Both the position numbers and the translations under genes were made by a program. Under the pieces are notes generated by a model. The model was given only the letters and a program-made list of their open reading frames with translations. It was not told the DNA's origin and ran no database searches. This document shows, in pieces, positions 1-15,020 of a stretch of DNA of 64,000 nt. Every line of letters begins with the position of its first letter. Positions within the stretch are counted from its first letter, which is position 1. Origin of the DNA: an uncultured Oxalicibacterium sp. (GTDB taxonomy: Bacteria; Pseudomonadota; Gammaproteobacteria; Burkholderiales; Burkholderiaceae_D); contig NZ_CAJYMD010000067.1 in NCBI RefSeq assembly GCF_913776015.1, forward strand, positions 66,274 through 130,273, given 5' to 3'.

Positions 1-914
1 ATCGGAACCTCGCCGCGCAGCGCGGCTTCGATCCATTTTGCGGTTGTAGCGGCTTCACGATCGGCGGGTAGCGGCGGCATGTCATCGACCGGCTCCTGCT
101 TTTGCACCAGTACCGTGCATTCCCCATCGTGAATCCAGGTAATTTGCTGTGCTCGCTTGGCATTTGCCACGGTTTCACCCTCGGTGCCACGCATCAGGAA
201 CACATCGCCGCGACCTGCAGGCGCGACCGTCGAGAAAAACTCGGTCAGCGTCGTCAGGTATTCGGGGTGCGTGTAAGAGGTCAGACGCAATGCCGGTGTG
301 GCAAACGGCTGCATGATCTTCACCAGCGTATGCGTCGAATTGCGCAAACCCAGCACACGCCGCAACGCCAGCAAACGAAACATCCGTGGTGCCAGCTTTT
401 CGATAGGCATGAACACCGGCGCATTACGTGCGAACTGTTCTGCCACCTGCTTGGCATCAAGGCTCGGTGTGTAACCGAGTTGGCTGAAAATTTCCGCACT
501 TGTCACTCGCCCCGGATCGGTCGTCACGCCGTGAATGAACACGGGTGCACCTGCCCGTCCCAGCAGCAAGGCCAGCAAGGGCAACAGATTCGGCAAGGCG
601 CGTGCACCGTTGTAGCTCGGAATCACGATCGGCGCGTAATCACCAGCCGGTGCATCAAGCGCCGGGAACGAAGCTTCGGCGGCTTCGATGAAGCCAGCTA
701 ATTCCTCAGCCGATTCGCCCTTGATACGCATGGACAGCAGGATCGCACCCATCTCCAGATCGGAGACGCGGCCATCCAGCATGGCACTGTAGAGAAGACA
801 CGCATCGTCACGCGACAGGCTGCGCGCGCCTTTGACGCCACGCCCGATTTCCTTGATGAAACGGGCGGCAGCGAATGGTTCGTTAGGTGTGATGTTGGAT
901 GTGATATTTGACAT
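1..914 (-). CDS. ybiB: YbiB/TrpD2-family protein (anthranilate phosphoribosyltransferase-like, DNA-binding); runs off the left edge
   Basis: Absent from the ORF track because it is incomplete. Hand translation from ATG at 914 gives MSNITSNITPNEPFAAARFIKEIGRGVKGARSL...MLDGRVSDLEMGAILLSMRIKGES...IPSYNGAR...MRGTEGE, the YbiB signature motifs. Confidence 0.85.
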   Translation of the reverse strand, partial: MSNITSNITPNEPFAAARFIKEIGRGVKGARSLSRDDACLLYSAMLDGRVSDLEMGAILLSMRIKGESAEELAGFIEAAEASFPALDAPAGDYAPIVIPSYNGARALPNLLPLLALLLGRAGAPVFIHGVTTDPGRVTSAEIFSQLGYTPSLDAKQVAEQFARNAPVFMPIEKLAPRMFRLLALRRVLGLRNSTHTLVKIMQPFATPALRLTSYTHPEYLTTLTEFFSTVAPAGRGDVFLMRGTEGETVANAKRAQQITWIHDGECTVLVQKQEPVDDMPPLPADREAATTAKWIEAALRGEVP

Positions 915-4305: not shown

Positions 4306-6744
4306 TCACACCGTGAGCGGGGAGAACTGGCGCACATCGACATGCGCCTTTTCCGATTCATGCCATGGGTCTGCCTCGCCTTCGAGCGCGAACAGCAAGC
4401 GTTCGTAGAGCGCCTTGCGATTGGCTTCGTCTTCCAGCACACGCTTCTTCACGTGTTCGAGGCCGACACGATCAAGGTAATGCACGGTTCGTTCCAGATA
4501 CCAGCCTTCTTCGCGATAGAGTTGCAGGAAGGCGCCCGTATATTCGAGCACTTCCTCATGCGTCTTCACCTTGACGAAGAATTGCGCGACTTCGGTCTTG
4601 ATACCGCCGTTACCGCCGACATAAAGCTCCCAGCCTGAATCGACACCGATGATGCCGACATCCTTGATGCCGGATTCCGCACAATTACGTGGGCAACCCG
4701 AGACTGCCAGCTTGGTCTTGTGCGGCGTGTACATCAACGCGAGCTGACGTTCGAGCTGTTGCCCCATCAGAGTGGAATTCTGCGTACCGAAGCGGCACCA
4801 TTCCGACCCGACGCAGGTCTTCACGGTACGCAAGCCCTTGGCATAACCGAGACCGGCCGGCATGCCGAGGTCATGCCAGACTTCGCGCAGGTCTTCCTTC
4901 TTCACACCCAGCAAATCGATGCGCTGGCCCCCCGTTACCTTGACGGTAGGGATCTTGAACTTATCCACCACGTCGGCAATGCGGCGCAGTTCGGATGCAT
5001 TCGTCTCGCCGCCCCACATGCGCGGAATCACCGAGAACGTACCGTCCTTCTGGATGTTGGCGTGCGCACGTTCGTTGATGAAGCGCGATTGCGGATCGTC
5101 GATCGCCTCATGCGGCCAGGTCGAGATCAGGTAGTAGTTGATCGCCGGACGGCAGCTCGAACAACCGTTCGGCGTTTTCCAGTTCATCTTGCCCATGACT
5201 TCCGCCACCGTCAGCATGTGCTGTTCGCGAATCGCGTCGCGCACGTCCTGATGCGTGTGATCGGTACAACCGCACATCGATTTGGCCTTTTTCGATGCCG
5301 AGTAATCGCCACCGACCGTCGCCATGATGATCTGCTCGACCAGCCCCGTGCACGAACCGCATGAAGCCGATGCCTTCGTATGCTTGCGCACATCCTCGAT
5401 GGTAAACAGGCCTTTTTCCTTGATCGCCTTGACCACAGTGCCCTTGCACACACCATTGCAACCGCAGACTTCGGCGGTATCGGGCATGGCTGCAGCCTTG
5501 TTGAAACCTTCATGACCGGTATCGCCGGGACGGCTCAGATTGGCTTCGCCGAACATCAGCGAATCGCGAATCTCGGTAATGTCCTTACCTTCGCGCAGCA
5601 TGTTGAAATACCAGCTGCCATCGACCGTATCGCCATACAGGCAGGCACCAACCAGCTTGTTGTCTTTCAGGACCAGCTTCTTGTACACGCCGCCGATCGG
5701 GTCGGACAGCATGATTTCTTCCATGCCATCGCCACCGAGAAAATCGCCGGCCGAAAACAGATCGATACCCGTGACCTTGAGTTTGGTGGACGTAACCGAA
5801 CCCTGATAGCGGCCAATGCCGTAGTTGGCCAAATGATTGGCACAGACCTTTGCCATCTCGAACAATGGCGCCACCAGACCATAGGCGATACCACGATGAT
5901 TCACACATTCGCCGACAGCGTAGATGCGCGGATCATAGGTTTGCATCGTGTCGTTGACGACGATGCCGCGGTTGCAATAGATACCGGTTTCTTCGGCCAG
6001 TTGCGTATTCGGGCGAATGCCGACCGCCATCACTACCAGATCGGCCAGCACTTCCGACCCATCGCTGAATTTCACCGCCTTGACGCGGCCATTGCCATCA
6101 CCAAGCAGTTCCTGCGTATTCTTGCCGAGCAGGAAAGACAGGCCACGATCTTCCAGCGACTTCTGCAGCATCTTGCCGGCAGTCTTGTCGAGCTGGCGCT
6201 CCATCAGCGTTTCCGGCAAATGCACGACCGTCACGTCCATGCCACGCAGCTTGAGACCGTTGGCGGCTTCCAGACCGAGCAAGCCGCCACCGATGACGAC
6301 CGCATGCTTGTACTTGGTGGCCGCATCGATCATGGTGTTGGTATCGTAAATATCGCGATAGCCGATCACACCATCAAGTTCACGACCGGGCACCGGCAGC
6401 ATGAAGGGATTGGAACCGGTCGCCAGCAGCAGGCGATCGTATTCCGCCGTCGTGCCATCGTCGGCGACGACAAGGCGCTTGACGCGATCGATCTTGACGA
6501 TCTTCTTGCCGAGATGCAGCTTGATCTCGTTCGCTTCATACCAATCGACATCGTTCAGCATGATGTCCTTGATCGTCTGTTCACCGGCCAACACGGGCGA
6601 CAGCAGGATACGGTTGTAGTTGGCGTATGGCTCGGAGCCGAACACCGTGATGTCATACAGATCGGGGGCGATCTTGCGCAATTCTTCCAATGTGCGCACG
6701 CCTGCCATCCCGTTACCGACCATGACCAGTTTCATCTTTTTCAT
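4306..6744 (-). CDS. nirB: Nitrite reductase (NADH) large subunit
   Basis: Start trimmed to MKKMKLVMVGNGMAG (FAD-binding). Contains VIGGGLLGLEAA, two BFD-like Cys clusters, and the siroheme/4Fe-4S motifs KTCVGSEWC and SGCPRNC. Confidence 0.96.
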   Translation of the reverse strand: MKKMKLVMVGNGMAGVRTLEELRKIAPDLYDITVFGSEPYANYNRILLSPVLAGEQTIKDIMLNDVDWYEANEIKLHLGKKIVKIDRVKRLVVADDGTTAEYDRLLLATGSNPFMLPVPGRELDGVIGYRDIYDTNTMIDAATKYKHAVVIGGGLLGLEAANGLKLRGMDVTVVHLPETLMERQLDKTAGKMLQKSLEDRGLSFLLGKNTQELLGDGNGRVKAVKFSDGSEVLADLVVMAVGIRPNTQLAEETGIYCNRGIVVNDTMQTYDPRIYAVGECVNHRGIAYGLVAPLFEMAKVCANHLANYGIGRYQGSVTSTKLKVTGIDLFSAGDFLGGDGMEEIMLSDPIGGVYKKLVLKDNKLVGACLYGDTVDGSWYFNMLREGKDITEIRDSLMFGEANLSRPGDTGHEGFNKAAAMPDTAEVCGCNGVCKGTVVKAIKEKGLFTIEDVRKHTKASASCGSCTGLVEQIIMATVGGDYSASKKAKSMCGCTDHTHQDVRDAIREQHMLTVAEVMGKMNWKTPNGCSSCRPAINYYLISTWPHEAIDDPQSRFINERAHANIQKDGTFSVIPRMWGGETNASELRRIADVVDKFKIPTVKVTGGQRIDLLGVKKEDLREVWHDLGMPAGLGYAKGLRTVKTCVGSEWCRFGTQNSTLMGQQLERQLALMYTPHKTKLAVSGCPRNCAESGIKDVGIIGVDSGWELYVGGNGGIKTEVAQFFVKVKTHEEVLEYTGAFLQLYREEGWYLERTVHYLDRVGLEHVKKRVLEDEANRKALYERLLFALEGEADPWHESEKAHVDVRQFSPLTV

Positions 6745-6783
6745 CGCTGCATCCCACAGAAAAGTATTGTTCTGACCTAAATA

Positions 6784-6799
6784 AGCAAAACAGATGCCA
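6784..6799 (-). promoter_or_regulatory. sigma54 -24/-12 promoter for nirBD-nasA-ybiB
   Basis: Minus strand reads TGGCATCTGTTTTGCT (GG-N10-GC), about 40 bp before the nirB ATG. Confidence 0.8.
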
Positions 6800-6879
6800 G
6801 TTTTATTCTGCCGTTTTTCATGGCCTGCTATTAAATATGCGCATGAAATGCACAATTTGAAAAAGACATGCCATGCAAC

Positions 6880-6895
6880 GCACCTGCGAAGTGCA
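6880..6895. promoter_or_regulatory. NtrC-type enhancer site
   Basis: GCAC-CTGCGAA-GTGCA palindrome midway between two divergent sigma54 promoters; a weaker CGCACCA half-site lies at 6912-6918. Confidence 0.6.
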
Positions 6896-6967
6896 TTGAC
6901 GCAACAAAAAGCGCACCAAGAATGCCCATCAAAACAAAAACCTTGCTCTACAAGGGTTTCAAAAAAG

Positions 6968-6983
6968 TGGCATAACACTTGCA
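6968..6983 (+). promoter_or_regulatory. sigma54 -24/-12 promoter for narK and the PP2C/kinase gene
   Basis: TGGCATAACACTTGCA (GG-N10-GC), 35 bp before the narK ATG. Confidence 0.8.
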
Positions 6984-7018
6984 TCTTTTCCCGCATCACT
7001 CAACTTGTGCGGACTGTC

Positions 7019-8233
7019 ATGCAAAAAACCTCGTTCTGGAAAGCCGGCCACACGCCGACACTGCTTTCCTCATTCTTCTATTTCGATCTCAGCTTCATGG
7101 TGTGGGTGATTCTGGGGCCGCTGGCGGTACAGATTTCTGCCGATGTCGGCCTCACCCCGGCGCAGAAAGGACTCGTGGTCGCCACGCCGCTGCTTGCCGG
7201 TGCATTGCTGCGCATGGTGATGGGCGTACTGGTCGATGCCCTGCAACCGAAAAAGGCGGGCGTGATCGGCCAGATTATCGTGATGGCAGGTCTGGTCTGG
7301 GCCTGGCTCGGCGATCTGCACAGCTATCACGCACTGCTCGCCTTTGGCATCATCCTCGGTGTTGCCGGTGCCGCCTTCGCGGTGGCGCTGCCGCTGGCTT
7401 CGCGCTGGTATCCGCCAGAACATCAGGGCATGGCACTCGGCATCGCCGGTGCCGGCAATTCCGGTACCGCACTGGCGGCCCTGTTTGCGCCGACGCTGGC
7501 AATTCATTTCGGCTGGCAAAACGTGTTCGGCCTGTGCCTGATTCCTTTGTCGGTTGCCTTCGTCGTGTATCTGGTATTCGCGAAGGATGCGCCGAATGCG
7601 CCGCCCGCCAAATCGCTGGTCGCGTACCTGCAAGTGCTGAAAGACAAGGATGCCTGGTGGTTCATGTTCTTCTACAGCGTCACCTTCGGCGGCTTTTCGG
7701 GTCTGGCATCTTCGCTGACGATCTACTTCAACGGGCAATATGGTTTGTCACCCGTCACGGCCGGTTACTTCACGGCAGCCTGCGTGTTCGCCGGTTCGAT
7801 GGTGCGCCCGATCGGCGGTCGTCTGGCCGATCGCATCGGTGGTATTCGCACGCTGTCGCTAATGTATATGCTGGCCGCCATCTTCCTGCTGATCGCCAGC
7901 ATCGGCCTGCCGTCGCCGATCATGGCGGCACTCGTGTTCGTGCTGGCGATGCTGTCGCTGGGTACCGGCAACGGTGCTGTGTTCCAGTTGGTGCCACAAC
8001 GCTTCCGCAAGGAGATCGGTGTCATGACTGGCCTGGTCGGCATGGCTGGCGGTATCGGCGGTTTCTATCTGGCTTCCAGCCTCGGCTATTCCAAGCAGTT
8101 GACGGGAACCTATCAAGCTGGCCTGATTTTGTTTGCCGCGCTGGCCATCGTTGCACTGATCGGTCTCTCGACCGTCAAGAAACGCTGGCGCACCACATGG
8201 GGCAGCGCCGCCATGACTAACGCCAAGATATGA
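7019..8233 (+). CDS. narK: MFS nitrate/nitrite transporter (NarK/NasA family)
   Basis: Start trimmed to MQKTSFWKAGH. Has about 12 hydrophobic segments and the nitrate signatures FAVALPLASRWYP..QG.ALGIAGAGN and GNGAVFQLVP. Confidence 0.93.
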   Translation: MQKTSFWKAGHTPTLLSSFFYFDLSFMVWVILGPLAVQISADVGLTPAQKGLVVATPLLAGALLRMVMGVLVDALQPKKAGVIGQIIVMAGLVWAWLGDLHSYHALLAFGIILGVAGAAFAVALPLASRWYPPEHQGMALGIAGAGNSGTALAALFAPTLAIHFGWQNVFGLCLIPLSVAFVVYLVFAKDAPNAPPAKSLVAYLQVLKDKDAWWFMFFYSVTFGGFSGLASSLTIYFNGQYGLSPVTAGYFTAACVFAGSMVRPIGGRLADRIGGIRTLSLMYMLAAIFLLIASIGLPSPIMAALVFVLAMLSLGTGNGAVFQLVPQRFRKEIGVMTGLVGMAGGIGGFYLASSLGYSKQLTGTYQAGLILFAALAIVALIGLSTVKKRWRTTWGSAAMTNAKI

Positions 8234-8267: not shown

Positions 8268-9980
8268 ATGCCACTGACCCTTTCTGCCGGCCATGCCTCA
8301 CGCGCCGGACTGCGGCCAGCCAACGAAGATTTCGTCGGCATGGTGATGCCGCCCGAGCCGGATCTGTCGAGCAAGGGTTTTCTCGCCGCCGTGGCCGATG
8401 GCGTCTCGGGCAATGATGGTGGTCGGCAGGCATCCGAATACACGGTGCGCGGCCTACTGGGCGATTACTACGCCACCTCCGATACGTGGCCCGTGACACA
8501 ATCGCTGGATCGCGTGATCAAGGCCATCAATAGCTGGGTACAGCAACAGGGTTCGATCCGCCCCGAACTGGCCGGCATGGCCTCGACGCTGACGACGCTG
8601 GTGCTGCGCGGCCATTTCTATTACTTCGCGCATGTGGGTGATACGCGTCTGTACCTGCTGCGCGACGACAAGCTCACACTACTAACCACCGACCACGTGT
8701 GGGATCGTCCCGAAATGCAGCACGTGCTGACACGTGCGATCGGCCTCGATTCACGCCTCGCCATTGATCACGGCATGGGCAATCTGCAGCAGGGCGATGT
8801 GTTCCTGCTGGCTTGCGATGGCGTGTGGGATACCTTATCGCATTACGAATTGCAGGAGCACCTGCAAACGGTCAGCACAGAGCGCGATGCCGAAACCGTT
8901 GCCAACGCCCTGCTCGATCATGCACTCGAAAAAGGTTCGCGCGACAACGTGAGCGCCATCGTCATACGCGTGCAGAACCTGCCCGAGATGAACTTGCGCG
9001 ATGCTGTTTCGGAATCGCAGCGGTTGCCCATTCCGCCGCGCCTCAAGGTCGGGCAGACCATCGACAGCTATCGCATCGAAGAACAGATTCATGCGTCGGC
9101 CACTACGCTGCTCTATCGCGTGAGCGAGCTGCGCCAGACCGGCGCAGCACCGCGCATGCTGGTACTGAAAACGCTGCATCCCGACAAGGCCGACGATCCG
9201 CACGAGCGTTCCGCCTTCGCCCATGAAGAATGGCTGTCGCGGCGTGTCGTCGCGCGCTTCTTTCCGCAGGCAATCGCTGCCGAAAACAAAAGCTATCACT
9301 ACTATCTGACGACGTGGCATGAAGGCAGCACGCTGCAGCAGCATCTCGATGTGGGCGAGCATTTCACGATTCCTGATGCGTTAGCGCATGGCAGCAAACT
9401 GATCCGCGCCATCGGTGCGCTGCATCGGCGCAGCATCATTCACCGCGATATCAAACCGGCCAACATTCATCTCGGCACGGATGGCGAGTTGCGAATTCTC
9501 GATCTGGGTGTGGCGCAATCGGGGCTGGAAGCCGAAGACGAAGTGCGTGCACCGCGCGCCGGCACGCCGTCCTTCCTGGCCCCCGAACAGTTCGATGCCG
9601 CACCTGCCTCACGCGCCACGGATCTGTACGCGGTTGGCGTGACGCTGTATCTGCTGCTGACGCGCCATTTTCCCTATGGCGAGATCGAACCGTTCCAGTC
9701 GCCGCGCTTCGGCACACCGGTTGCGCCAAGCCGCTATCGTCGCGATCTGCCGATGTGGCTGGAGAACGTATTGCTCAAGGCAGTAGCGCGCGATCCTGCA
9801 GATCGCTTTGAAACGGCAGAAGAATTTCAGTTGGCACTCGAACGCGGTGCAGCGCGACCTATCGATCGTCTGCCGAAAAAGCCCTTGGCAGAGCGCGACC
9901 CAACCAGTTTGTGGCGTGCGATTGCGCTGGTATCGGTGGTGACGAATCTTTTGCTGCTTTATCTTTTGGTGGTGCGCTAA
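8268..9980 (+). CDS. Bifunctional PP2C-type phosphatase / Hanks-type Ser/Thr kinase with C-terminal membrane anchor
   Basis: PP2C motifs RPANED, VADGVSG, HVGDTR, LTTDH, CDGVWD, SRDNV. Kinase motifs VLK, HRDIKPANI, DLG, GTPSFLAPE, DLYAVG. Ends in a hydrophobic tail. Confidence 0.9.
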   Translation: MPLTLSAGHASRAGLRPANEDFVGMVMPPEPDLSSKGFLAAVADGVSGNDGGRQASEYTVRGLLGDYYATSDTWPVTQSLDRVIKAINSWVQQQGSIRPELAGMASTLTTLVLRGHFYYFAHVGDTRLYLLRDDKLTLLTTDHVWDRPEMQHVLTRAIGLDSRLAIDHGMGNLQQGDVFLLACDGVWDTLSHYELQEHLQTVSTERDAETVANALLDHALEKGSRDNVSAIVIRVQNLPEMNLRDAVSESQRLPIPPRLKVGQTIDSYRIEEQIHASATTLLYRVSELRQTGAAPRMLVLKTLHPDKADDPHERSAFAHEEWLSRRVVARFFPQAIAAENKSYHYYLTTWHEGSTLQQHLDVGEHFTIPDALAHGSKLIRAIGALHRRSIIHRDIKPANIHLGTDGELRILDLGVAQSGLEAEDEVRAPRAGTPSFLAPEQFDAAPASRATDLYAVGVTLYLLLTRHFPYGEIEPFQSPRFGTPVAPSRYRRDLPMWLENVLLKAVARDPADRFETAEEFQLALERGAARPIDRLPKKPLAERDPTSLWRAIALVSVVTNLLLLYLLVVR

Positions 9981-10003
9981 GACACTAAGACGCTGAAAAA
10001 CAA

Positions 10004-10037
10004 AACGGCCTGCAGCAAACGTGCAGGCCGTTCTTTT
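10004..10037. terminator. Likely bidirectional intrinsic terminator between convergent genes
   Basis: aacggcctgca/tgcaggccgtt stem flanked by A-rich and T-rich runs. Confidence 0.8.
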
Positions 10038-10055
10038 GTGAAGCGCGGCACCAAT

Positions 10056-10808
10056 TCAGGCTACGGCCTCTTCCAGCGCCGCTTTGACCAGATCATCGAT
10101 CTCACCGGTAATACGCGACAGCACGCCAGCCACCACCGAAAATTCTTTGCCGGCTTCCCCGGCACGCGCCGCAACGATACGGGCATTGAATGCCACCATC
10201 TTGGCTTCGCGTGCAATGGTTTCAATATCCGTCATCACGCCATGCAATTGCGCGTGCATCAACCGCGCATGCTTTTTCGATTCGGCTTCATAGATCGCCG
10301 TAAGTTGATTCAGCACGGCCAGCAAGGCGGTCGTGCCATCCACCAGTTCTTCCAGCAGTTGTGGCGCATGGCGCAACTTGTCGTCGATTGCATTGAGCGC
10401 ACGCTCGGCCAGATCCATGAAGTGACGTATCTTGCGATCACCTTCCTGTGTACCGAAATACGCCTGTTCAAGTTCGCCACAGAATACGCCTGGCAATTGC
10501 CCTGAAGGCCGCATGAGCAACTGGTGCGCGTCGCGGAATAGCTTGAGTGCTTCGCGTGCCGTGCTCGTGGCATTCTCGCGCCCCTGCGCACCGAGCACCG
10601 CATACAAGACCAGCCGTTGCGAGGTAAAACGACGACGCCCCGACAGATTGATCAGCATGCCGAACACTTCACCCGACAGCGGGACGATACCGCTGTCCTG
10701 CTCGGCTTCCTGATGGATAAGCGGCGCAGTTCCGACTGCCGGCACCACGGCAGACCGATCTGCATGCTTGTCGTTTGCGGCCATGGGCAGCGTGATCGTC
10801 TGCCGCAT
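10056..10808 (-). CDS. Soluble protein with NarX/PilJ-type sensor motif and a minimal chemoreceptor signalling hairpin
   Basis: INLSGRRRFTSQR resembles the P-box/N-box. C-terminal IAREAKMVAFNARIVAARAGEAGKEFSVVA resembles the MCP tip. No transmembrane segment. Alternative start at 10784. Confidence 0.8.
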   Translation of the reverse strand: MRQTITLPMAANDKHADRSAVVPAVGTAPLIHQEAEQDSGIVPLSGEVFGMLINLSGRRRFTSQRLVLYAVLGAQGRENATSTAREALKLFRDAHQLLMRPSGQLPGVFCGELEQAYFGTQEGDRKIRHFMDLAERALNAIDDKLRHAPQLLEELVDGTTALLAVLNQLTAIYEAESKKHARLMHAQLHGVMTDIETIAREAKMVAFNARIVAARAGEAGKEFSVVAGVLSRITGEIDDLVKAALEEAVA

Positions 10809-10843
10809 CGGAATGACGTTCGCGGCCGAAGCCGCGGGCGCGC

Positions 10844-11656
10844 TCAGGCAGCCTCCTTCGCCGGATGCGATTGACGGTGATACAGGAATTCCAGCACCGC
10901 CGAACGGTATTGCATGTATTGCGGATCCTGAGCCAGCGCCACGCGTTCACGCGGACGGGCCAGTTTCACTTCGCAAATCTCGCCGATGGTGGCCGATGGG
11001 CCATTGGTCAGCATGACGATGCGATCCGACAGCAGCACGGCTTCATCCACATCGTGCGTGACCATGACGACGGTGGAATTGGTCGCGGCCACGATCTTCA
11101 GCAACTCATCCTGAAGATGCGCACGCGTCAAGGCGTCGAGTGCACCGAACGGTTCGTCCATCAGCAGCACTTTCGGTTCCATCGACAGCGCACGCGCAAT
11201 ACCGACGCGCTGCTTCATGCCGCCCGAGATTTCATTCGGCCGCTTTTGCTCCGCATGCGTTAGGCCCACCATCGCCAGCGCAGCCCTGGTGCGTGCCTGC
11301 AATTGCGCTTTCGATTCGCTGCCACCGAACACACGCTCAACAGCCAGATACACGTTTTCAAAACACGTCAACCACGGCAACAGTGAATGGTTCTGGAACA
11401 CGACCGCACGCTCAGGCGACGGGCCGGCAATTTCGCGATTGCCGCACAATAGTGCGCCACCGGTTGCCGTCGTCAGGCCGGCAATCAGATTCAGCAATGT
11501 CGATTTGCCGCAACCCGAGTGACCGATCAGCGTGATGAATTCACCCTTGGCAACCGTCAGGTTGATGTCGCGCAGCGCATTGAAAACGCCCTTCTTGGTG
11601 TGGAACGACATTTCACCGTTTTGAATGTCGATGTATTTGCTGTTGGTGCTGTCCAT
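10844..11656 (-). CDS. nasD: Nitrate ABC transporter ATP-binding subunit (NasD/NrtD)
   Basis: Walker [34 protein letters not shown]; start trimmed to MDSTNSK. Confidence 0.93.
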
Positions 11657-11709
11657 GATGGTTTCCTTCTGCGTATGGATGCGGGGTCGTTGTGATGACA
11701 TCTCGCCTT

Positions 11710-11748
11710 GCATGCGGCCGGCTGGGATACGCGTTGCCGACCGCATGC
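11710..11748. other. Intercistronic hairpin between nasE and nasD (13-bp stem, no U-tract)
   Basis: Minus strand GCATGCGGTCGGC ... GCCGGCCGCATGC. Confidence 0.6.
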
Positions 11749-11779
11749 GATTTTTGTGTTGCTTATCGATGATCTACAC

Positions 11780-12697
11780 TTAGCTCTTCACATCTTCGTA
11801 GGTGAAGGCGCGTGCGATACCAACCAGAATCTGTTCGAGAATCAGGCCGACGACGCCGATGACGACGATGGCGATGATGATGTGCGGCACATTGAGGTTG
11901 TTCCACTCATCCCACACCCAGAAGCCGATACCGACACCGCCGGTCAGCATTTCTGCCGCCACGATCACCAGCCATGCGGTACCGATGGCAAGACGCACGC
12001 CGGTCAGCATGTACGGCAATACGGAAGGAAAAAGAATCTTGGTGATGATCTTCCACTCCGACAGATTCAGTACACGTGCCACATTCATGTAATCCTGCGG
12101 AACCCGCTGCACGCCTACAGCGGTGTTGATGATCATCGGCCAGATCGAGCAGATGAAGATCGCCCAGATCGCAGCCGGATCGGCAGCCTTGAATACCAGA
12201 AGACCAATCGGCAACCAGGCCAGGGGCGACACCGGTTTCAACAGGCTGATGATCGGATTGAACATCCCCGACAGAAAACTGAAGCGACCAATCATGAAGC
12301 CCAGCGGAATACCTACCAACGCCGCCGCGCCGAAGCCAAGGCCAACGCGCTTGAGCGAAGCGAGAATATTCCAGCCGATGCCCTGGTCATTCGGGCCGTT
12401 GCTGTAGAACGGATCGGCGAACAGGTCAAGCGCTGATTTCCACGTCACGAATGGCGAGGGAATGCCACTGTTTTTGGCAGCGATGATTTCCCACACCACG
12501 ATCAGGAAAAACACACCGAACAACGGCGGCAGAATCTTCATCATGAAGGGGCGTAGCGAAGACGGTTTCTTCGGCTTGCCGACGGCCTTGGTGTCCACCG
12601 CTGCCGCTACAGCACCGCCTTGGGTGGTGCTGTCGGCCCTGGTGCTCGATGCGTGGACGACAGGAGATAAGGTTTCTGCAACGACTGCGGTATTCAT
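11780..12697 (-). CDS. nasE: Nitrate ABC transporter permease (NasE/NrtB)
   Basis: LFADPFYSNGPNDQGIGWNILASL, LKPVSPLAWLP, VAAEML, WDEWNNL. Confidence 0.93.
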   Translation of the reverse strand: MNTAVVAETLSPVVHASSTRADSTTQGGAVAAAVDTKAVGKPKKPSSLRPFMMKILPPLFGVFFLIVVWEIIAAKNSGIPSPFVTWKSALDLFADPFYSNGPNDQGIGWNILASLKRVGLGFGAAALVGIPLGFMIGRFSFLSGMFNPIISLLKPVSPLAWLPIGLLVFKAADPAAIWAIFICSIWPMIINTAVGVQRVPQDYMNVARVLNLSEWKIITKILFPSVLPYMLTGVRLAIGTAWLVIVAAEMLTGGVGIGFWVWDEWNNLNVPHIIIAIVVIGVVGLILEQILVGIARAFTYEDVKS

Positions 12698-12706
12698 GAG
12701 GACTCC

Positions 12707-13957
12707 TTATGCCTTGATCTTGAACGATTCGGCGTATGCCTTCGGATTCTTGCCATCCCAGACCACACCATCGATGAGCTTGGACGAACGCATTTCGCTC
12801 TTCGGCAGCGGCACCTTGGCTGCGGTAGCGGCTTCCTTGTAGAGCGCGATACGGTTGATCGATTTCGCCGTGCCCAGGTAATCCGGCTCGCCCTTGGCCA
12901 GACCCCAGCGCTTGTGCTGCGTCATGAACCACATGCCATCCGACAGGTACGGGAAGTTGACCGCGCCTTCGTTGTAGAACTTCATGTAGTTCGGATCGTC
13001 CCAGGTCTTGCCGAGGCCGTTTTGATAGCGACCGAGAATGCGTTCGTTGATCACATCGACCGAGGTATTCACATAAGCCTTGGCCGCGATCGTGTCAGCC
13101 ATCTTGGCCTTGTTCGACAGCGAGGAATCGATCCAGCGACCGGCTTCGAGAATGGCGGCCGTCACGGCGCGTGCGGTGTTGGGATTCTTGGCAACCCAGT
13201 CCGACGTCGTACCCAGCACTTTTTCAGGATGATCTTTCCAGATGTCTTGCGTGGTCGCCGCCGTGATGCCGATGCCATCGACGATGGCGCGGTGATTCCA
13301 CGGTTCGCCAACGCAGAAACCATCCATGTTGCCGACACGCATATTGGCAACCATCTGCGGTGGCGGCACGGTGATGACCTTGGCATCCTTCATCGGATTG
13401 ATGCCATAGGTTGCCAGCCAGTAGTACAGCCACATGGCGTGTGTGCCGGTCGGGAAGGTTTGCGCAAACGTGTACTCGCGCTTTTCCATCTGCATCAGCT
13501 TCGCGAGCGCCGGGCCGTTGATCGCACCGGCATCGGCGAGCTTTTTCGAGAGCGTGATGGCCTGACCATTGTTGTTTAGGTTCATCAGCACGGCCATGTC
13601 TTTCTTGGCACCGCCTATGCCTTCATGCACGCCATACACGAGGCCGTACAGCACATGCGCTGCATCGAGTTCACCATTGACCAGCTTGTCGCGCACACCA
13701 GCCCACGAGGATTCCTTGGTCGGCACGATCTTGACGCCGTACTTCTTGTCGAAGCCCATGACTGATGCCATGACAACCGACGCGCAATCGGTCAGCGGAA
13801 TGAAACCGATCTTGACCTCTTCCTTCTCTGGTTTGTCCGATCCGGCAGCCCAGACACCGCCGGTTGCCAAACCGCCAAATGCGCCCACTGCGGCGGCGGT
13901 ACCTGCCTTGATAATGGTGCGTCGTGTCATGTTGGTTTTCCCGTCGTGCGTTGTCAT
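12707..13957 (-). CDS. nasF: Nitrate ABC transporter substrate-binding protein (NasF/NrtA, CmpA family) with twin-arginine signal
   Basis: Start trimmed to MTTHDGK. Contains TRRTIIK (TAT), GFIPLTDCA, TFPTGTH and GFCVGEPW. Confidence 0.92.
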   Translation of the reverse strand: MTTHDGKTNMTRRTIIKAGTAAAVGAFGGLATGGVWAAGSDKPEKEEVKIGFIPLTDCASVVMASVMGFDKKYGVKIVPTKESSWAGVRDKLVNGELDAAHVLYGLVYGVHEGIGGAKKDMAVLMNLNNNGQAITLSKKLADAGAINGPALAKLMQMEKREYTFAQTFPTGTHAMWLYYWLATYGINPMKDAKVITVPPPQMVANMRVGNMDGFCVGEPWNHRAIVDGIGITAATTQDIWKDHPEKVLGTTSDWVAKNPNTARAVTAAILEAGRWIDSSLSNKAKMADTIAAKAYVNTSVDVINERILGRYQNGLGKTWDDPNYMKFYNEGAVNFPYLSDGMWFMTQHKRWGLAKGEPDYLGTAKSINRIALYKEAATAAKVPLPKSEMRSSKLIDGVVWDGKNPKAYAESFKIKA

Positions 13958-13984
13958 GTCGTCCTCGATAGCGAAGTGGAAAAG

Positions 13985-14033
13985 AAAAAACGTCCGGCGT
14001 CGCAAAAGCACATGCTTCTGCAACACCGGACGT
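13985..14033 (-). terminator. Leader (attenuator) terminator ahead of nasF
   Basis: Minus strand ACGTCCGGTGTTGCAGAAGC-ATGT-GCTTTTGCGACGCCGGACGT followed by TTTTT, between the promoter and the nasF start. Confidence 0.85.
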
Positions 14034-14045
14034 CGTTGTCCTGAG

Positions 14046-14101
14046 ATGACAACCGCCATTGGTCATCATCGTGGTGTATTTTTAGTACCGCCGTTGGTAC
14101 T
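14046..14101 (-). promoter_or_regulatory. Tandem ANTAR-binding RNA hairpins (NasT antitermination element)
   Basis: AGTACC-AACGGC-GGTACT and ATGACC-AATGGC-GG..TCAT. Both are hexaloops with A1/G4 closed by C-G, directly 5' of the terminator. Confidence 0.85.
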
Positions 14102-14112
14102 GAATTGAAACT

Positions 14113-14128
14113 AGCAATTCATATGCCA
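14113..14128 (-). promoter_or_regulatory. sigma54 -24/-12 promoter for nasFED and the mini-receptor gene
   Basis: Minus strand TGGCATATGAATTGCT (GG-N10-GC). Confidence 0.85.
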
Positions 14129-14233
14129 GTTTATGAAAGTCATCGCCAACCGAGCCATTTTAAGAGGAGAAACGGTTGCGGCGTTTGCGGCAACCAATAC
14201 CAGCAACCCAGGTTGATCAGCGCTTTGCCAAGC

Positions 14234-14266
14234 GCGCTGTTTTCGTGCATCGCATTGATTTAGTGC
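14234..14266. promoter_or_regulatory. Tandem NtrC-type sites
   Basis: GCGC-N7-GTGC (14234-14248) and GCAT-N7-GTGC (14252-14266), about 110-140 bp upstream of the sigma54 site. Confidence 0.55.
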
Positions 14267-14369
14267 ATCACAAATGCACTATTTAAAGCGCAGCACGAAC
14301 ACAATCCAGCGACGTCGACACCAACCACCAACAAGATCTCAAGCATTACGGTAGTCGCTCGCGGCTCAC

Positions 14370-15020
14370 TCAACCAAGCAGATCGGCAATATCGATCAGG
14401 CGTTGCGCCAGTTCCGACAGCTTGACGTTCTTGTCCATCGCCATGCGGCGCAACTTGCTGTAAGCCTCGTCTTCGGAAATCTTGTGCCGCTCCATCAGCA
14501 AACCCTTGGCGCGTTCGATCGTCTTGCGTTCGGCCAGCTTGAGCTTGGTGTCGGACAGTTCATTGCGCAGTTTCTGGTCGGCGTTGAAACGCGCCAGCGC
14601 CACGTCCAGCACCGGCTTGACGCGCTCAGCCTGCAAACCGGCGACGATGTAGGCGGACACACCGGCCGCCATTGCCGCTTCCATGCTGGATGGCGCGTGG
14701 TCTTCGGTAAACAGCACGATCGGGCGTGGCGCTTCGCGCGTGGCCATCACCACGTGTTCCAGCACATCGCGCGCATCCGATTCAGCATCGATGATGATCA
14801 TGTCGGGCTGCAATTGCATCACGCGCTCGGGCAAATGCATATCGGCCGGGAACACGGCGACGATGTTATAGCCGGCTTCCAGCAGACCGATGCGCAAGGC
14901 GCGTGCGCGCTCATCCTGCTCCAGCGCCAGATCATCTTCGAGATCGGCTTCAGGCGAGAGCAAGGTATTGACGACGACGATGCGCAGGGAGCGCATATCG
15001 ACTTTGTTATGTGAGGTCAT
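14370..15020 (-). CDS. nasT: ANTAR-domain antiterminator with receiver-like domain (NasT)
   Basis: [19 protein letters not shown]...RPIVLFT...GVSAYIV, and the ANTAR domain [13 protein letters not shown]...SEDEAY..LRRMAM. Confidence 0.9.

What the first reader, a model, noticed from the sequence alone, without database searches (positions are those of the whole stretch)
8268..15020. Hypothesis: a non-canonical nitrate-signalling module (NasT + soluble PilJ-MCP sensor + PP2C/kinase) replacing NasS
Seen: the cluster holds three signalling proteins (ANTAR antiterminator, soluble putative nitrate sensor, kinase/phosphatase fusion) but no cytoplasmic NrtA-like NasS. Inference only: nitrate may be sensed by the mini-receptor or via Ser/Thr phosphorylation and relayed to NasT. 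Because the mini-receptor gene is itself downstream of the ANTAR terminator, this would form a feedback loop. This is the best candidate for an undescribed system in the window.
Basis: inference. Interest (0 to 1): 0.7.

Follow-up and report, generated by a model that had tools for sequence, protein, structure and literature searches.

The report
NasS-less nitrate regulon with soluble mini-sensor
This is a nitrate-uptake gene cluster whose RNA-binding switch protein (NasT) lacks its usual nitrate-sensing partner; it carries a small uncharacterised cytoplasmic protein that looks like a nitrate sensor, but comparison with relatives shows this protein is an accessory, not a simple replacement for the missing partner.

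Summary
Window 8268-15020 encodes NasT (pseudo-receiver + ANTAR), a TAT-exported NrtA with NrtB and NrtC, a 250-aa soluble PilJ/MCP-tip protein ("Mini") and a tail-anchored PP2C/Ser-Thr-kinase fusion after narK. No cytoplasmic NasS was found anywhere in the 99.9%-complete genome. Mini is the last gene of the sigma54-driven nrtABC operon, behind a covariation-supported two-hexaloop ANTAR leader and terminator.

"Replacing NasS" is only partly supported.
- Mini's sensor domain is homologous to the nitrate-binding McpN ligand-binding domain and keeps the key arginine.
- REC-ANTAR-PilJ fusion proteins exist elsewhere.
- But Mini sits directly after nasT-nasS in many relatives and also occurs in NasR genomes.
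- Mini is missing from a sister species.
- Mini is present in only 7 of 27 NasS-less nasT-nrtA genomes sampled.
- The kinase fusion usually follows narK and co-occurs with NasS once.

NasS-less NasT is therefore the commonest arrangement among the relatives sampled, and its nitrate input is unknown.

My preferred, inferred model is that Mini is a cytoplasmic nitrate/nitrite sensor giving NasT feedback. Coupling to chemotaxis proteins is almost as likely. The Mini family and the fusion family both appear uncharacterised.

The parts
14370..15020 (-). nasT: pseudo-receiver + ANTAR antiterminator, the only ANTAR protein in the genome
   Evidence: Pfam ANTAR E 4.7e-22. Single ANTAR hit in the genome. 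Alignment to Rv1626, 6WSH and CheY keeps the Asp and Thr but replaces the conserved Lys (AYIVAG versus YLVKP).
14262..14280 (-). Inverted repeat AGTGCAT-N5-ATGCACT upstream of the sigma54 promoter; possible NtrC-type enhancer site (inference)
   Evidence: Read directly from the sequence. Not tested.
14113..14128 (-). Sigma54-type promoter TGGCAT-N5-TTGCT of the nrtABC-mini operon
   Evidence: Pattern search gave 3 hits in 64 kb, all in the nas intergenic regions, against 0.44 expected. The site is conserved in 8 related leaders.
13989..14101 (-). NasT target leader: hairpin 1 (14084-14101, loop AACGGC), hairpin 2 (14045-14070, loop AAUGGC), intrinsic terminator (13989-14034) followed by a U-run
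   Evidence: Fold dG -64 kcal/mol, z -6.5. Terminator scan. In 9 relatives, 18 of 29 pairs show compensatory changes. The covariance model finds only this site in the genome. Sub-threshold Rfam narK RNA match, 24.5 bits. Both loops have A at position 1 and G at position 4, as required for NasT (PMC10783516).
12707..13957 (-). nrtA: periplasmic nitrate-binding protein with a twin-arginine signal; not NasS
   Evidence: NMT1_2 E 3e-103. TRRTIIKAG...VWA signal read from the translation.
11780..12697 (-). nrtB: nitrate ABC transporter permease
   Evidence: TIGR01183, 248 bits, above the cut-off.
10844..11746 (-). nrtC/D: nitrate ABC transporter ATPase without a C-terminal NrtA-like regulatory domain; the true start is probably about 30 codons into the ORF
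   Evidence: TIGR01184, 332 bits, above the cut-off.
10056..10808 (-). Mini: soluble N-box-like PilJ four-helix-bundle sensor running directly into a bare MCP hairpin tip (alternative start at 10784)
   Evidence: Pfam. 54-member family alignment. AF2 model pLDDT 89. Family profile against PDB: Tm14 tip E 5e-15, McpN ligand-binding domain 6GCV E 5.6e-7. Foldseek to 6GCV, target TM-score 0.78. No hydrophobic segment.
10002..10034 (.). Bidirectional intrinsic terminator between the convergent mini and kinase genes
   Evidence: Terminator scan on both strands; sequence read.
8268..9980 (+). PP2C phosphatase + Hanks-type Ser/Thr kinase fusion, tail-anchored by a C-terminal membrane helix, 35 nt after narK
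   Evidence: Pfam PP2C, PP2C_2 and Pkinase. HRDIKPAN, DLG, APE, DGVSG and DGVWD motifs read from the translation. Membrane helix at residues 551-569.
7019..8233 (+). narK-type nitrate/nitrite MFS transporter; sigma54 promoter at 6968-6983 and only a short leader without ANTAR hairpins
   Evidence: MFS_1 and TIGR00886, 284 bits, below its 311.7-bit cut-off. Promoter. Sequence.
6784..6799 (-). Sigma54-type promoter of nirBD-nasA, with a leader of about 25 nt and no ANTAR element
   Evidence: The covariance model found no second leader.

Best explanation
The region is the transport and regulatory half of an NtrC/sigma54-dependent nitrate-assimilation regulon of an Oxalobacteraceae-like betaproteobacterium.

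NasT, a pseudo-receiver fused to an ANTAR domain, antiterminates at a two-hexaloop leader in front of nrtABC-mini. That is its only detectable target. nirBD-nasA and narK-kinase have sigma54 promoters but no such leader.

NasS has been lost. A relative (G056) still has nasT-nasS-nrtABC. This NasS-less form is the commonest arrangement among the relatives sampled.

Mini belongs to a widespread, apparently uncharacterised family of about 220-aa soluble proteins. An N-box-type PilJ four-helix bundle, homologous to the nitrate-binding McpN ligand-binding domain, runs directly into a bare MCP hairpin tip.

Inferred mechanism:
- Mini dimers bind nitrate or nitrite in the cytoplasm through the invariant arginine (R60).
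- In this nasT-linked clade, ligand-free Mini restrains NasT and ligand-bound Mini releases it.
- Because mini lies behind the terminator, nitrogen limitation gives a burst of transporter and Mini. The burst is sustained only if imported nitrate keeps Mini off NasT.
- This is a probe-then-commit negative feedback, acting as an accessory layer rather than a universal substitute for NasS.

The PP2C/kinase fusion is inferred to act separately, at the membrane, on NarK or its partners.

Shown: the gene content, the leader, the absence of NasS, the domain homologies and the distributions. Inferred: ligand binding, the Mini-NasT contact and the kinase target.
For: Gene map and domains.

Absence of NasS.

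Leader: with a single hit in the genome.

NasT as a pseudo-receiver.

Mini family and sensor domain:
- The family carries an N-box-like motif. 27 of 54 members match the published pattern [IVL]-[ND]-x-A-G-x-Q-R-M-L-[ST]-Q (pattern and the R61 role from PMC6381276).
- AF2 gives a four-helix bundle plus hairpin.
- Homology to the McpN ligand-binding domain.

Synteny:
- The clade with the window's motif (INLSGRRRFTSQ, at least 62% identity) lies within 4 kb of nasT in 15 of 17 loci.
- It follows either nrtABC or nasS.

Fusion evidence: REC-ANTAR-2xPilJ fusions carry canonical N-boxes. They form a large family whose PilJ part is homologous to Mini (hhalign probability 96.9%).

The terminator stems keep pairing through compensatory changes across genera. 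This argues that antitermination is still regulated in NasS-less genomes.
Against: - Mini is absent from a sister species with the same cluster.
- Mini is absent from 20 of 27 sampled NasS-less nasT-nrtA genomes. At least 8 of these were fully scored and also lack the kinase.
- Mini coexists with NasS and with self-sufficient NIT-ANTAR regulators.
- Paralogues sit in unrelated contexts, some next to GGDEF-EAL proteins.
- The output part is a near-canonical MCP tip, whose only known partners are CheA and CheW.
- The window protein departs from the strict N-box at 4 of 12 positions.
- No interaction or binding data exist.
Confidence: 0.35

Rival explanations
1. Mini is a minimal soluble chemoreceptor. 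Cytoplasmic nitrate or nitrite binding to the four-helix bundle is passed straight to the MCP tip. The tip docks on CheW/CheA, inside or beside chemoreceptor arrays, so that nitrate assimilation status biases motility. NasT only controls its expression.
For: - The C-terminal roughly 85 residues match the Tm14 signalling tip, the fragment crystallised as 3UR1 (85 aa) and 4JPB (E 5e-15 to 8e-15).
- The canonical tip residues N208, R215, G217, G220 and F223 are nearly invariant across the family.
- All 15 full-length Mini-positive genomes in the sample have CheW, against 66 of 81 overall. CheW-negative genomes that carry NasT or NrtA have no Mini.
- The window's own genome has 12 full-length MCP-type signalling-domain hits among 14 matches, and several CheA/CheW genes.
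- Paralogues in non-nas contexts suggest a generic output partner.
Against: - The hairpin is about 5 heptads per arm, far shorter than any MCP length class I know of (from memory). There are no methylation helices or HAMP domain.
- No che genes lie nearby.
- Several positions that I recall as trimer-of-dimer contacts in Tsr are changed. This is a reading from memory and was not tested.
- The CheW co-occurrence is weak evidence, because CheW is present in 81% of the sample and relatives are not independent.
Confidence: 0.3
2. The PP2C/kinase fusion is the missing input. Tail-anchored beside NarK, it reports nitrate or nitrite flux by phosphorylating and dephosphorylating NasT or a NasT partner on Ser/Thr.
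For: - Orthologues (57-78% identity) occur in about 28 of 81 sampled genomes, mostly within nas clusters.
- They are found in about 22 of 39 NasT-positive, NasS-negative genomes, but in only 1 of 12 NasS-bearing ones.
- In two Comamonadaceae the gene directly follows the REC-ANTAR-PilJ regulator gene.
- In G050 it abuts nasT.
- The kinase and phosphatase motifs look intact.
Against: - It usually follows narK: window; L115; L122; L023. This points to the transporter as partner.
- It occurs without NasT (G017, G049, G091) and together with NasS (G056).
- As I recall, and not verified here, P. aeruginosa has both NasS/NasT and the adjacent predicted kinase PA1782. That kinase is uncharacterised (PMC11197903).
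- At least 8 NasS-less nasT-nrtA genomes lack it.
- The anticorrelation with NasS is confounded by phylogeny and by two alternative narK cluster types.
Confidence: 0.15
3. There is no nitrate input to NasT at all. After loss of NasS, NasT antiterminates whenever it is made, and the operon is governed only by nitrogen status through NtrC/sigma54, and perhaps NtrYX as reported for Herbaspirillum seropedicae. Mini and the kinase do unrelated jobs, for example post-translational control of NrtABC or NarK.
For: - As I recall (not checked against a paper here), loss of NasS gives nitrate-independent nas expression in the studied NasS/NasT systems. The read papers describe NasS holding NasT inactive without nitrate.
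- All three nas promoters are sigma54-type.
- NasS-less NasT without Mini or kinase is common.
- NtrYX is implicated in nitrate assimilation in H. seropedicae (Bonato et al. 2016, cited in PMC5424462).
- In Azoarcus, absence of ammonium alone induces nas genes (PMC8467165).
Against: - Leader hairpins and terminator are kept by compensatory substitutions across genera.
- NasT is well conserved (65-86% identity).
- An always-on antiterminator gives no reason to keep the terminator.
- NasT is a pseudo-receiver, the type normally controlled by a bound partner.
Confidence: 0.15

Closest known systems
NasS-NasT two-component antitermination system (Paracoccus denitrificans, Azotobacter vinelandii, Pseudomonas; PMC3795266, PMC10783516)
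   Same: NasT-type pseudo-receiver + ANTAR protein. NtrC/sigma54 promoter followed by a leader with two hexaloop hairpins (A1, G4) and a terminator. The controlled genes are nitrate-assimilation genes.
   Different: No NasS in the genome. The NasT target is the ABC transporter operon only, not nirBD-nasA. A PilJ/MCP-tip protein is encoded behind the terminator.
NasR of Klebsiella oxytoca (NIT + ANTAR; PDB 4AKK)
   Same: Nitrate-responsive antitermination at the leader of an nrtABC-like (nasFED) operon. The ANTAR domain is homologous (E 1e-8).
   Different: The window's NasT has no NIT domain. NIT-ANTAR proteins occur instead in some Mini-bearing relatives (L110, L117).
McpN (PA2788) PilJ-type nitrate chemoreceptor ligand-binding domain, PDB 6GCV, with its N-box (PMC6381276); also the NarX/NarQ sensor domains
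   Same: Four-helix-bundle fold and an N-box-like first helix with the nitrate-binding arginine. The family consensus INLAGRQRMLSQ matches the published N-box.
   Different: Mini is cytoplasmic and has no transmembrane helices. The window protein has S, R, F and T at four N-box positions. The sensor helix runs directly into the MCP tip with no HAMP domain or methylation region.
Soluble chemoreceptors such as Thermotoga maritima Tm14 (PDB 3G67, 3UR1)
   Same: Soluble, with a conserved signalling hairpin tip (E 5e-15).
   Different: Tm14 has a full-length coiled-coil cytoplasmic domain. Mini keeps only about 33 residues per arm and adds an N-terminal ligand-binding bundle.
REC-ANTAR-PilJ fusion proteins of Comamonadaceae (P0272 family; databases name them only as AmiR/NasT-family or PilJ N-terminal-domain proteins)
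   Same: The same two functional parts, a NasT-like antiterminator and an N-box PilJ sensor, in nas clusters next to nirB and the PP2C/kinase gene.
   Different: The parts are fused in one chain, with two PilJ repeats and no MCP tip. In the window they are separate proteins. I found no paper on this family in the searches I ran.
Predicted Ser/Thr kinase PA1782 of P. aeruginosa (uncharacterised; PMC11197903)
   Same: As I recall (not verified here), PA1782 lies between the nitrate transporter gene nasA and nirB in the nas cluster, like the narK-kinase pair here.
   Different: P. aeruginosa also has NasS/NasT (recalled). Orthology and the presence of the PP2C half were not tested here.

Membership tests
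NasS/NasT system | NasT: receiver-like domain + ANTAR RNA-binding domain | tested here: met
   Pfam ANTAR E 4.7e-22 with a weak REC match. Homology to Rv1626 and 6WSH over both domains.
NasS/NasT system | NasS: cytoplasmic NrtA-like nitrate/nitrite-binding partner, usually encoded next to nasT | tested here: not met
   No signal-less NMT1_2 protein was found in the genome (ten of the eleven hits inspected). A NasS query finds only NrtA.
NasS/NasT system | Target leader with two hexaloop hairpins (A1, G4) overlapping or preceding an intrinsic terminator | tested here: met
   Loops are AACGGC and AAUGGC.
NasS/NasT system | Nitrate/nitrite-dependent release of NasT from its partner | not testable with these tools
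   Needs biochemistry.
NasR | NIT sensor domain fused to ANTAR | tested here: not met
   NasT is 216 aa with REC + ANTAR only. There is no other ANTAR gene in the genome.
N-box PilJ nitrate sensors (McpN type) | PilJ-type four-helix-bundle fold | tested here: met
   AF2 pLDDT 89. Foldseek to 6GCV: target TM-score 0.78, rmsd 3.0. Family profile against 6GCV E 5.6e-7. The single-sequence Pfam PilJ score is below the cut-off, 23.1 against 26.6 bits.
N-box PilJ nitrate sensors (McpN type) | N-box pattern [IVL]-[ND]-x-A-G-x-Q-R-M-L-[ST]-Q | tested here: not met
   The window protein reads I-N-L-S-G-R-R-R-F-T-S-Q, so 4 of 12 positions differ. 27 of 54 family members match strictly.
N-box PilJ nitrate sensors (McpN type) | Arginine equivalent to McpN R61 that hydrogen-bonds nitrate | tested here: met
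   R60 is invariant in all 54 aligned members. The role of R61 is from PMC6381276.
N-box PilJ nitrate sensors (McpN type) | Specific nitrate binding | not testable with these tools
   Needs ITC or thermal shift.
Methyl-accepting chemotaxis proteins | Conserved signalling hairpin tip | tested here: met
   PF00015 at 36.6 bits, above the 34.6-bit cut-off, covering profile positions 18-75 only. Tm14 tip E 5e-15.
Methyl-accepting chemotaxis proteins | Full-length cytoplasmic coiled coil with methylation (adaptation) helices | tested here: not met
   Only 58 of 172 profile positions match. The model shows a hairpin of about 33 residues per arm.
Methyl-accepting chemotaxis proteins | Coupling to CheA/CheW | not testable with these tools
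   Only co-occurrence is available: 15 of 15 Mini-positive genomes have CheW against 66 of 81 overall.
Hanks-type Ser/Thr kinase / PP2C phosphatase | Both catalytic domains with their core motifs | tested here: met
   Pfam Pkinase E 6e-24 and PP2C E 1e-12. HRDIKPAN, DLG, APE, DGVSG and DGVWD read in the translation.

The most novel reading that the evidence does not exclude
N-box PilJ bundles are a third class of cytoplasmic nitrate/nitrite sensor for ANTAR antiterminators, beside NasS and the NIT domain of NasR. They act in cis in the abundant REC-ANTAR-PilJ fusions. They act in trans in the Mini family, where a recycled chemoreceptor tip serves as the docking surface. In the window this closes a probe-then-commit feedback loop on an orphan NasT.
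Probability: 0.3. Interest if true: 0.75.

Novelty: new variant of a known kind. Interest (0 to 1): 0.58.

Why it matters
The papers I read describe bacterial nitrate assimilation as controlled either by NasS-NasT or by NasR. Here, the commonest arrangement in a sample of 81 related genomes is NasT with an intact, covarying leader and terminator but no NasS. What tells these NasT proteins that nitrate is present is therefore an open and directly testable question.

Two apparently uncharacterised protein families surfaced that could supply part of the answer. One is the soluble PilJ + MCP-tip family (906 database proteins at E <= 0.001). The other is the REC-ANTAR-PilJ fusions (1882 hits, at least the 120 best sharing this architecture).

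Mini is also an unusual architecture in itself: a ligand-binding bundle fused to nothing but the CheA/CheW-binding tip. It is relevant to how chemoreceptor parts are reused.

The practical value is in annotation. These proteins are now labelled as chemotaxis proteins. There is also possible value for nitrate-responsive genetic switches.

Tried and rejected
- **Hidden NasS.** I searched the whole genome with PF13379 and with a genuine NasS. Only signal-peptide ABC binding proteins were found, so this was rejected.
- **Mutual exclusion of Mini and NasS.** Rejected, because nasT-nasS-mini operons exist.
- **Mini strictly dependent on NasT.** Weakened. Mini also occurs in genomes whose antiterminator is NIT-ANTAR, and in orphan contexts.
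- **Strict exclusion of kinase and NasS.** Rejected by G056.
- **Phosphorylation of NasT by a histidine kinase.** Judged unlikely, because the conserved receiver Lys is missing.
- **Further NasT targets.** A covariance model of the leader found none in the genome, although only 150 of 552 candidates were scored. nirB and narK have leaders of only about 25 nt.
- **Conserved neighbours of orphan Mini paralogues.** None emerged beyond occasional GGDEF-EAL proteins or a second PilJ protein.
- **First related-loci run with the 54-sequence alignment.** It failed because no stretch was conserved enough. It was repeated with 11 sequences.
- **Single-sequence search of the sensor domain against PDB.** It did not reach 6GCV. 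The family profile did.
- **Foldseek E-values.** They are weak for this all-helical model (best 0.09), so I rely on TM-scores and the sequence profile.
- **Literature searches for PA1782 and for kinases in nas clusters.** They gave no functional data. The P. aeruginosa gene order could not be verified with the tools.

Full report
**What is in the window**

ORF listing with Pfam and NCBIfam scans gives this map.
- nasA/C nitrate reductase: 1068-3860(-).
- nirD, then nirB: 4306-6744(-).
- narK: 7019-8233(+).
- PP2C + Ser/Thr-kinase fusion: 8268-9980(+).
- A 250-aa PilJ/MCPsignal protein, here called Mini: 10056-10808(-).
- nrtC/D: 10844-11746(-).
- nrtB: 11780-12697(-).
- nrtA: 12707-13957(-).
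- nasT: 14370-15020(-).
- tsaD follows.

Mini has no hydrophobic segment, with a maximum 19-residue hydropathy of 1.21. The kinase fusion has a C-terminal membrane helix at residues 551-569, so it is tail-anchored rather than soluble. Its kinase motifs (HRDIKPAN, DLG, APE) and PP2C motifs (DGVSG, DGVWD) are intact in the translation.

**Absence of NasS**

The cluster's NrtA-like protein has a twin-arginine signal and is followed by the permease and ATPase genes, so it is the periplasmic binding protein.

A PF13379 search of the whole assembly (3.16 Mb, 82 contigs, 99.9% complete) found eleven hits. The ten I fetched and read (including the cluster's own NrtA) carry signal peptides. The two other NrtA-like ones, L002 and L003, sit in ABC-transporter operons. 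The weakest hit (29 bits) was not inspected.

A genuine NasS from Janthinobacterium (P0121) is 390 aa, has no signal peptide and is encoded directly after nasT. Used as query, it finds only NrtA in this genome. NasT is the only ANTAR protein in the genome.

**Regulatory DNA and RNA**

The pattern TGGYAY-N5-TTGCW occurs three times in 64 kb, against 0.44 expected. All three sites lie in front of nas genes: nirB, narK and nrtA.

Only the nrtA transcript has a long leader.
- It folds into two hairpins with hexaloops AACGGC and AAUGGC, followed by a 20-bp terminator and a U-run (dG -64 kcal/mol, z -6.5).
- The first-A, fourth-G loop rule for NasT RNA is stated in PMC10783516.
- The leader is conserved in eight related loci, and 18 of 29 predicted pairs show compensatory changes.
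- A covariance model built from it finds only this site in the genome (150 of 552 candidates scored).
- Rfam gives a sub-threshold, full-length match to the narK RNA motif (24.5 bits).

No convincing terminator separates the leader from mini. A bidirectional terminator at 10002-10034 ends both convergent operons. NasT appears to gate only nrtABC-mini.

**NasT itself**

Alignment to Rv1626, 6WSH and a CheY shows that the phospho-acceptor Asp and the Thr are present. The conserved Lys is replaced (AYIVAG where the others have Y-[LI]-V-K-P), and the N-terminal acidic-pocket region does not align. It is a pseudo-receiver of the AmiR/NasT kind. This makes control by a bound protein more likely than control by a histidine kinase.

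**What Mini is**

Homologues are numerous. There are 906 proteins in the 90% clustered database. Among the 50% representatives, 677 have E <= 0.001, 116 of them at E <= 1e-10. Sources name them only as chemotaxis proteins or PilJ N-terminal-domain proteins.

An alignment of 54 full-length members (204-265 aa) shows two conserved blocks.
- An N-terminal block, LINLAGRQRMLSQR.
- A C-terminal block, NAxVxAARAGxxGREFxVVA.

The first block is the N-box that Martin-Mora et al. defined around the nitrate site of the McpN ligand-binding domain, where R61 hydrogen-bonds nitrate (PMC6381276).
- 27 of 54 members match that pattern strictly.
- The window protein and its close relatives read INLSGRRRFTSQ. 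The arginine (R60, invariant) is kept, but four other positions differ.

Further evidence on the two halves:
- The family profile hits the Thermotoga Tm14 signalling tip (E 5e-15) and the McpN ligand-binding domain 6GCV (E 5.6e-7).
- AlphaFold2 with the family alignment gives a confident model (pLDDT 89). A four-helix bundle at residues 46-175 has its last helix running on without a break to a hairpin at 148-215/217-249.
- Foldseek places 6GCV among the best matches (target TM-score 0.78, rmsd 3.0). E-values are weak, as usual for helical bundles.

Mini is therefore a cytoplasmic McpN-like sensor bundle joined directly to the part of a chemoreceptor that normally contacts CheA and CheW. It has no membrane segments, HAMP domain or adaptation helices.

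**Genomic contexts of Mini**

Eighty loci from species-representative genomes, plus two look-ups, were annotated by BLAST against the window's proteins. Four situations appear.
- Type 1: nasT-leader-nrtABC-mini. Seen in the window, Herbaspirillum and Duganella.
- Type 2: nasT-nasS-mini, usually followed by narK-nirB. Seen in Janthinobacterium and Pseudoduganella. The NrtA-like protein starts at the mature-protein position, lacks a signal peptide, and no permease follows.
- Type 3: mini next to narK/nasA (Paraburkholderia, Caballeronia) or near nirB-nasA (Comamonadaceae). In these genomes nasT-nasS or nasT-nrtA is encoded elsewhere.
- Type 4: paralogues of 50-59% identity in unrelated surroundings. 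A few lie next to GGDEF-EAL proteins or a second PilJ protein.

Members with at least 62% identity and the window's motif lie within 4 kb of nasT in 15 of 17 loci.

In Methylobacillus, and in one Herbaspirillum-like genome (G052), the antiterminator is a NIT-ANTAR (NasR-type) protein, yet nrtABC and mini are present.

Four type 1 genomes searched whole have no NasS.

**Sample of the taxonomic family**

Eighty-one genomes of the same GTDB family were searched. Mini was found in 16, one of them a partial match. NasT was found in 52. CheW was found in 66. Orthologues of the kinase fusion were found in about 28.

I classified each NrtA/NasS hit by its distance from nasT.
- 27 genomes have nasT, then a gap of 350-800 bp, then nrtA, and no second NrtA-like gene. 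This is type 1, without NasS.
- 12 genomes have a signal-less NasS abutting nasT. A thirteenth, G087, is an unpublished genome on which no conclusion rests.

Among the 27 type 1 genomes:
- 7 have Mini, adjacent to nasT in 3 of them;
- 14 have the kinase fusion;
- at least 8 have neither (G016, G035, G054, G055, G064, G072, G081, G094), and in all eight every candidate was scored.

A second species of the window's own genus (G089) has tsaD-nasT-nrtABC converging on kinase-narK, with no mini at all.

G056 has nasT-nasS-nrtABC together with narK-kinase. This looks like the undivided ancestral arrangement. It also shows that NasS and the kinase can coexist.

Relatives are not independent, so these counts describe the sample and are not statistical tests.

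**A Rosetta-stone fusion**

Two Comamonadaceae carry a 440-aa protein encoded between nirB and the PP2C/kinase gene. It consists of REC, ANTAR and two PilJ repeats, with N-boxes VNRAGQLRMLSQ and LNLAGRQRMLSQ. Its relatives are many: 1882 hits, of which all 120 listed carry both ANTAR and PilJ. They are named only generically. Its second PilJ repeat is homologous to Mini's sensor (hhalign probability 96.9%, E 1.4e-10). N-box PilJ bundles are therefore used in the cytoplasm together with NasT-like antiterminators.

**Interpretation**

The claim of a three-gene module replacing NasS does not survive comparison.
- The three genes are not inherited together.
- Mini is as often found with NasS or NasR as without.
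- The kinase usually follows narK.
- NasS-less NasT commonly has neither passenger.

At the same time, the conserved and covarying terminator, together with the pseudo-receiver, argues that orphan NasT is still regulated by something.

For this genome I favour, at about 35%, a model in which Mini binds nitrate or nitrite and modulates NasT. This would produce a burst of transporter expression under nitrogen limitation that persists only if nitrate is found.

The rivals are:
- Mini uses its chemoreceptor tip for what such tips are known to do, namely bind CheW/CheA (about 30%). All 15 full-length Mini-positive genomes have CheW, and the tip residues are canonical.
- The kinase fusion relays a signal to NasT (about 15%).
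- NasT has no nitrate input at all, with control by NtrC and perhaps NtrYX (about 15%). Bonato et al. 2016, cited in PMC5424462, implicate NtrYX in nitrate assimilation in H. seropedicae.

**Comparison with what is known, and novelty**

The NasT, leader and NrtABC parts are ordinary members of known kinds. The NasS/NasT system as defined requires NasS, and that feature was tested and not met. NasR membership also fails, because there is no NIT domain.

Mini works like an McpN-type nitrate sensor, but it fails the strict N-box pattern and the periplasmic topology. It has an MCP tip, but it fails the defining full-length signalling domain.

I found no paper on this family, on the REC-ANTAR-PilJ fusions, on NasS-less NasT or on the nas-linked PP2C/kinase. 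PA1782 of P. aeruginosa is listed only as a predicted kinase. Its position in the nas cluster beside NasS/NasT is my recollection and was not verified.

I rate the finding as a new variant of known kinds with moderate-to-good interest (0.58). The specific hypothesis is only partly right. It does, however, point at a real gap, the unknown sensor of orphan NasT, and at two uncharacterised sensor families.

Noticed in passing
L113:1078-2397(+) and L114 (Comamonadaceae bacterium OS-4, Curvibacter sp.): A 440-aa REC + ANTAR + 2xPilJ fusion protein with canonical N-boxes, encoded between nirB and a PP2C/kinase gene. It belongs to a large family (1882 database hits) that carries only generic names. 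It may be a third type of nitrate-responsive antiterminator.
   Followed up: partly
L122 (G056:C1:3648500-3662500): nasT-nasS-nrtA-nrtB-nrtC in tandem, plus narK-kinase. NasS (no signal peptide) and NrtA (TAT signal) sit side by side. This suggests that the NasS-less and NrtABC-less clusters arose by differential loss.
   Followed up: partly
L115:1832-3190 (G089, same genus as the window): The sister species lacks mini. It has a 1.3-kb insertion between nasT and the nrtA leader, with an ORF that weakly matches the eCIS_core domain (E 4.5e-9).
   Followed up: partly
G000:C36, L121:1152-1940(-): The window's genome encodes a second short protein (262 aa) that carries only the MCP hairpin tip (profile positions 45-89, 63 bits). 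It lies next to a 341-aa HATPase_c protein. Bare-tip proteins may be a recurring design.
   Followed up: no
window 6745-7018: The divergent nirB-narK intergenic region has back-to-back sigma54-type promoters (6784-6799(-), 6968-6983(+)). It also contains several GCAC/GTGC half-sites that could be NtrC enhancers. Both leaders are only about 25 nt long.
   Followed up: partly
L028, L052, L055 (Mini paralogue loci): Some Mini paralogues lie directly after GAF-GGDEF-EAL or Amt-PAS-GGDEF-EAL proteins. This is of interest because c-di-GMP binds P. putida NasT (PMC10783516).
   Followed up: no
L030, L033, L035, L037 (Cupriavidus, Ralstonia): Here Mini paralogues are followed by a second protein of about 265-300 aa with a PilJ domain (E 4.6e-26), forming a two-gene pair of PilJ proteins.
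   Followed up: no
L002 (G000:C14:645-4358): A second NrtA/CmpA-like binding protein (466 aa) has about 70 residues ahead of its twin-arginine signal. It is followed by its own permease gene; the ATPase was not checked. Its substrate is unknown (nitrate, cyanate or bicarbonate).
   Followed up: no
window 3-914(-) and 1068-3860(-): The nitrate reductase is 930 aa, about 200 residues longer than the NasA/NasC models it matches. The extension contains Cys-rich motifs and was not scanned against Pfam. It is followed by a YbiB-like (TrpD2 family) gene (NF006005, 411 bits).
   Followed up: no
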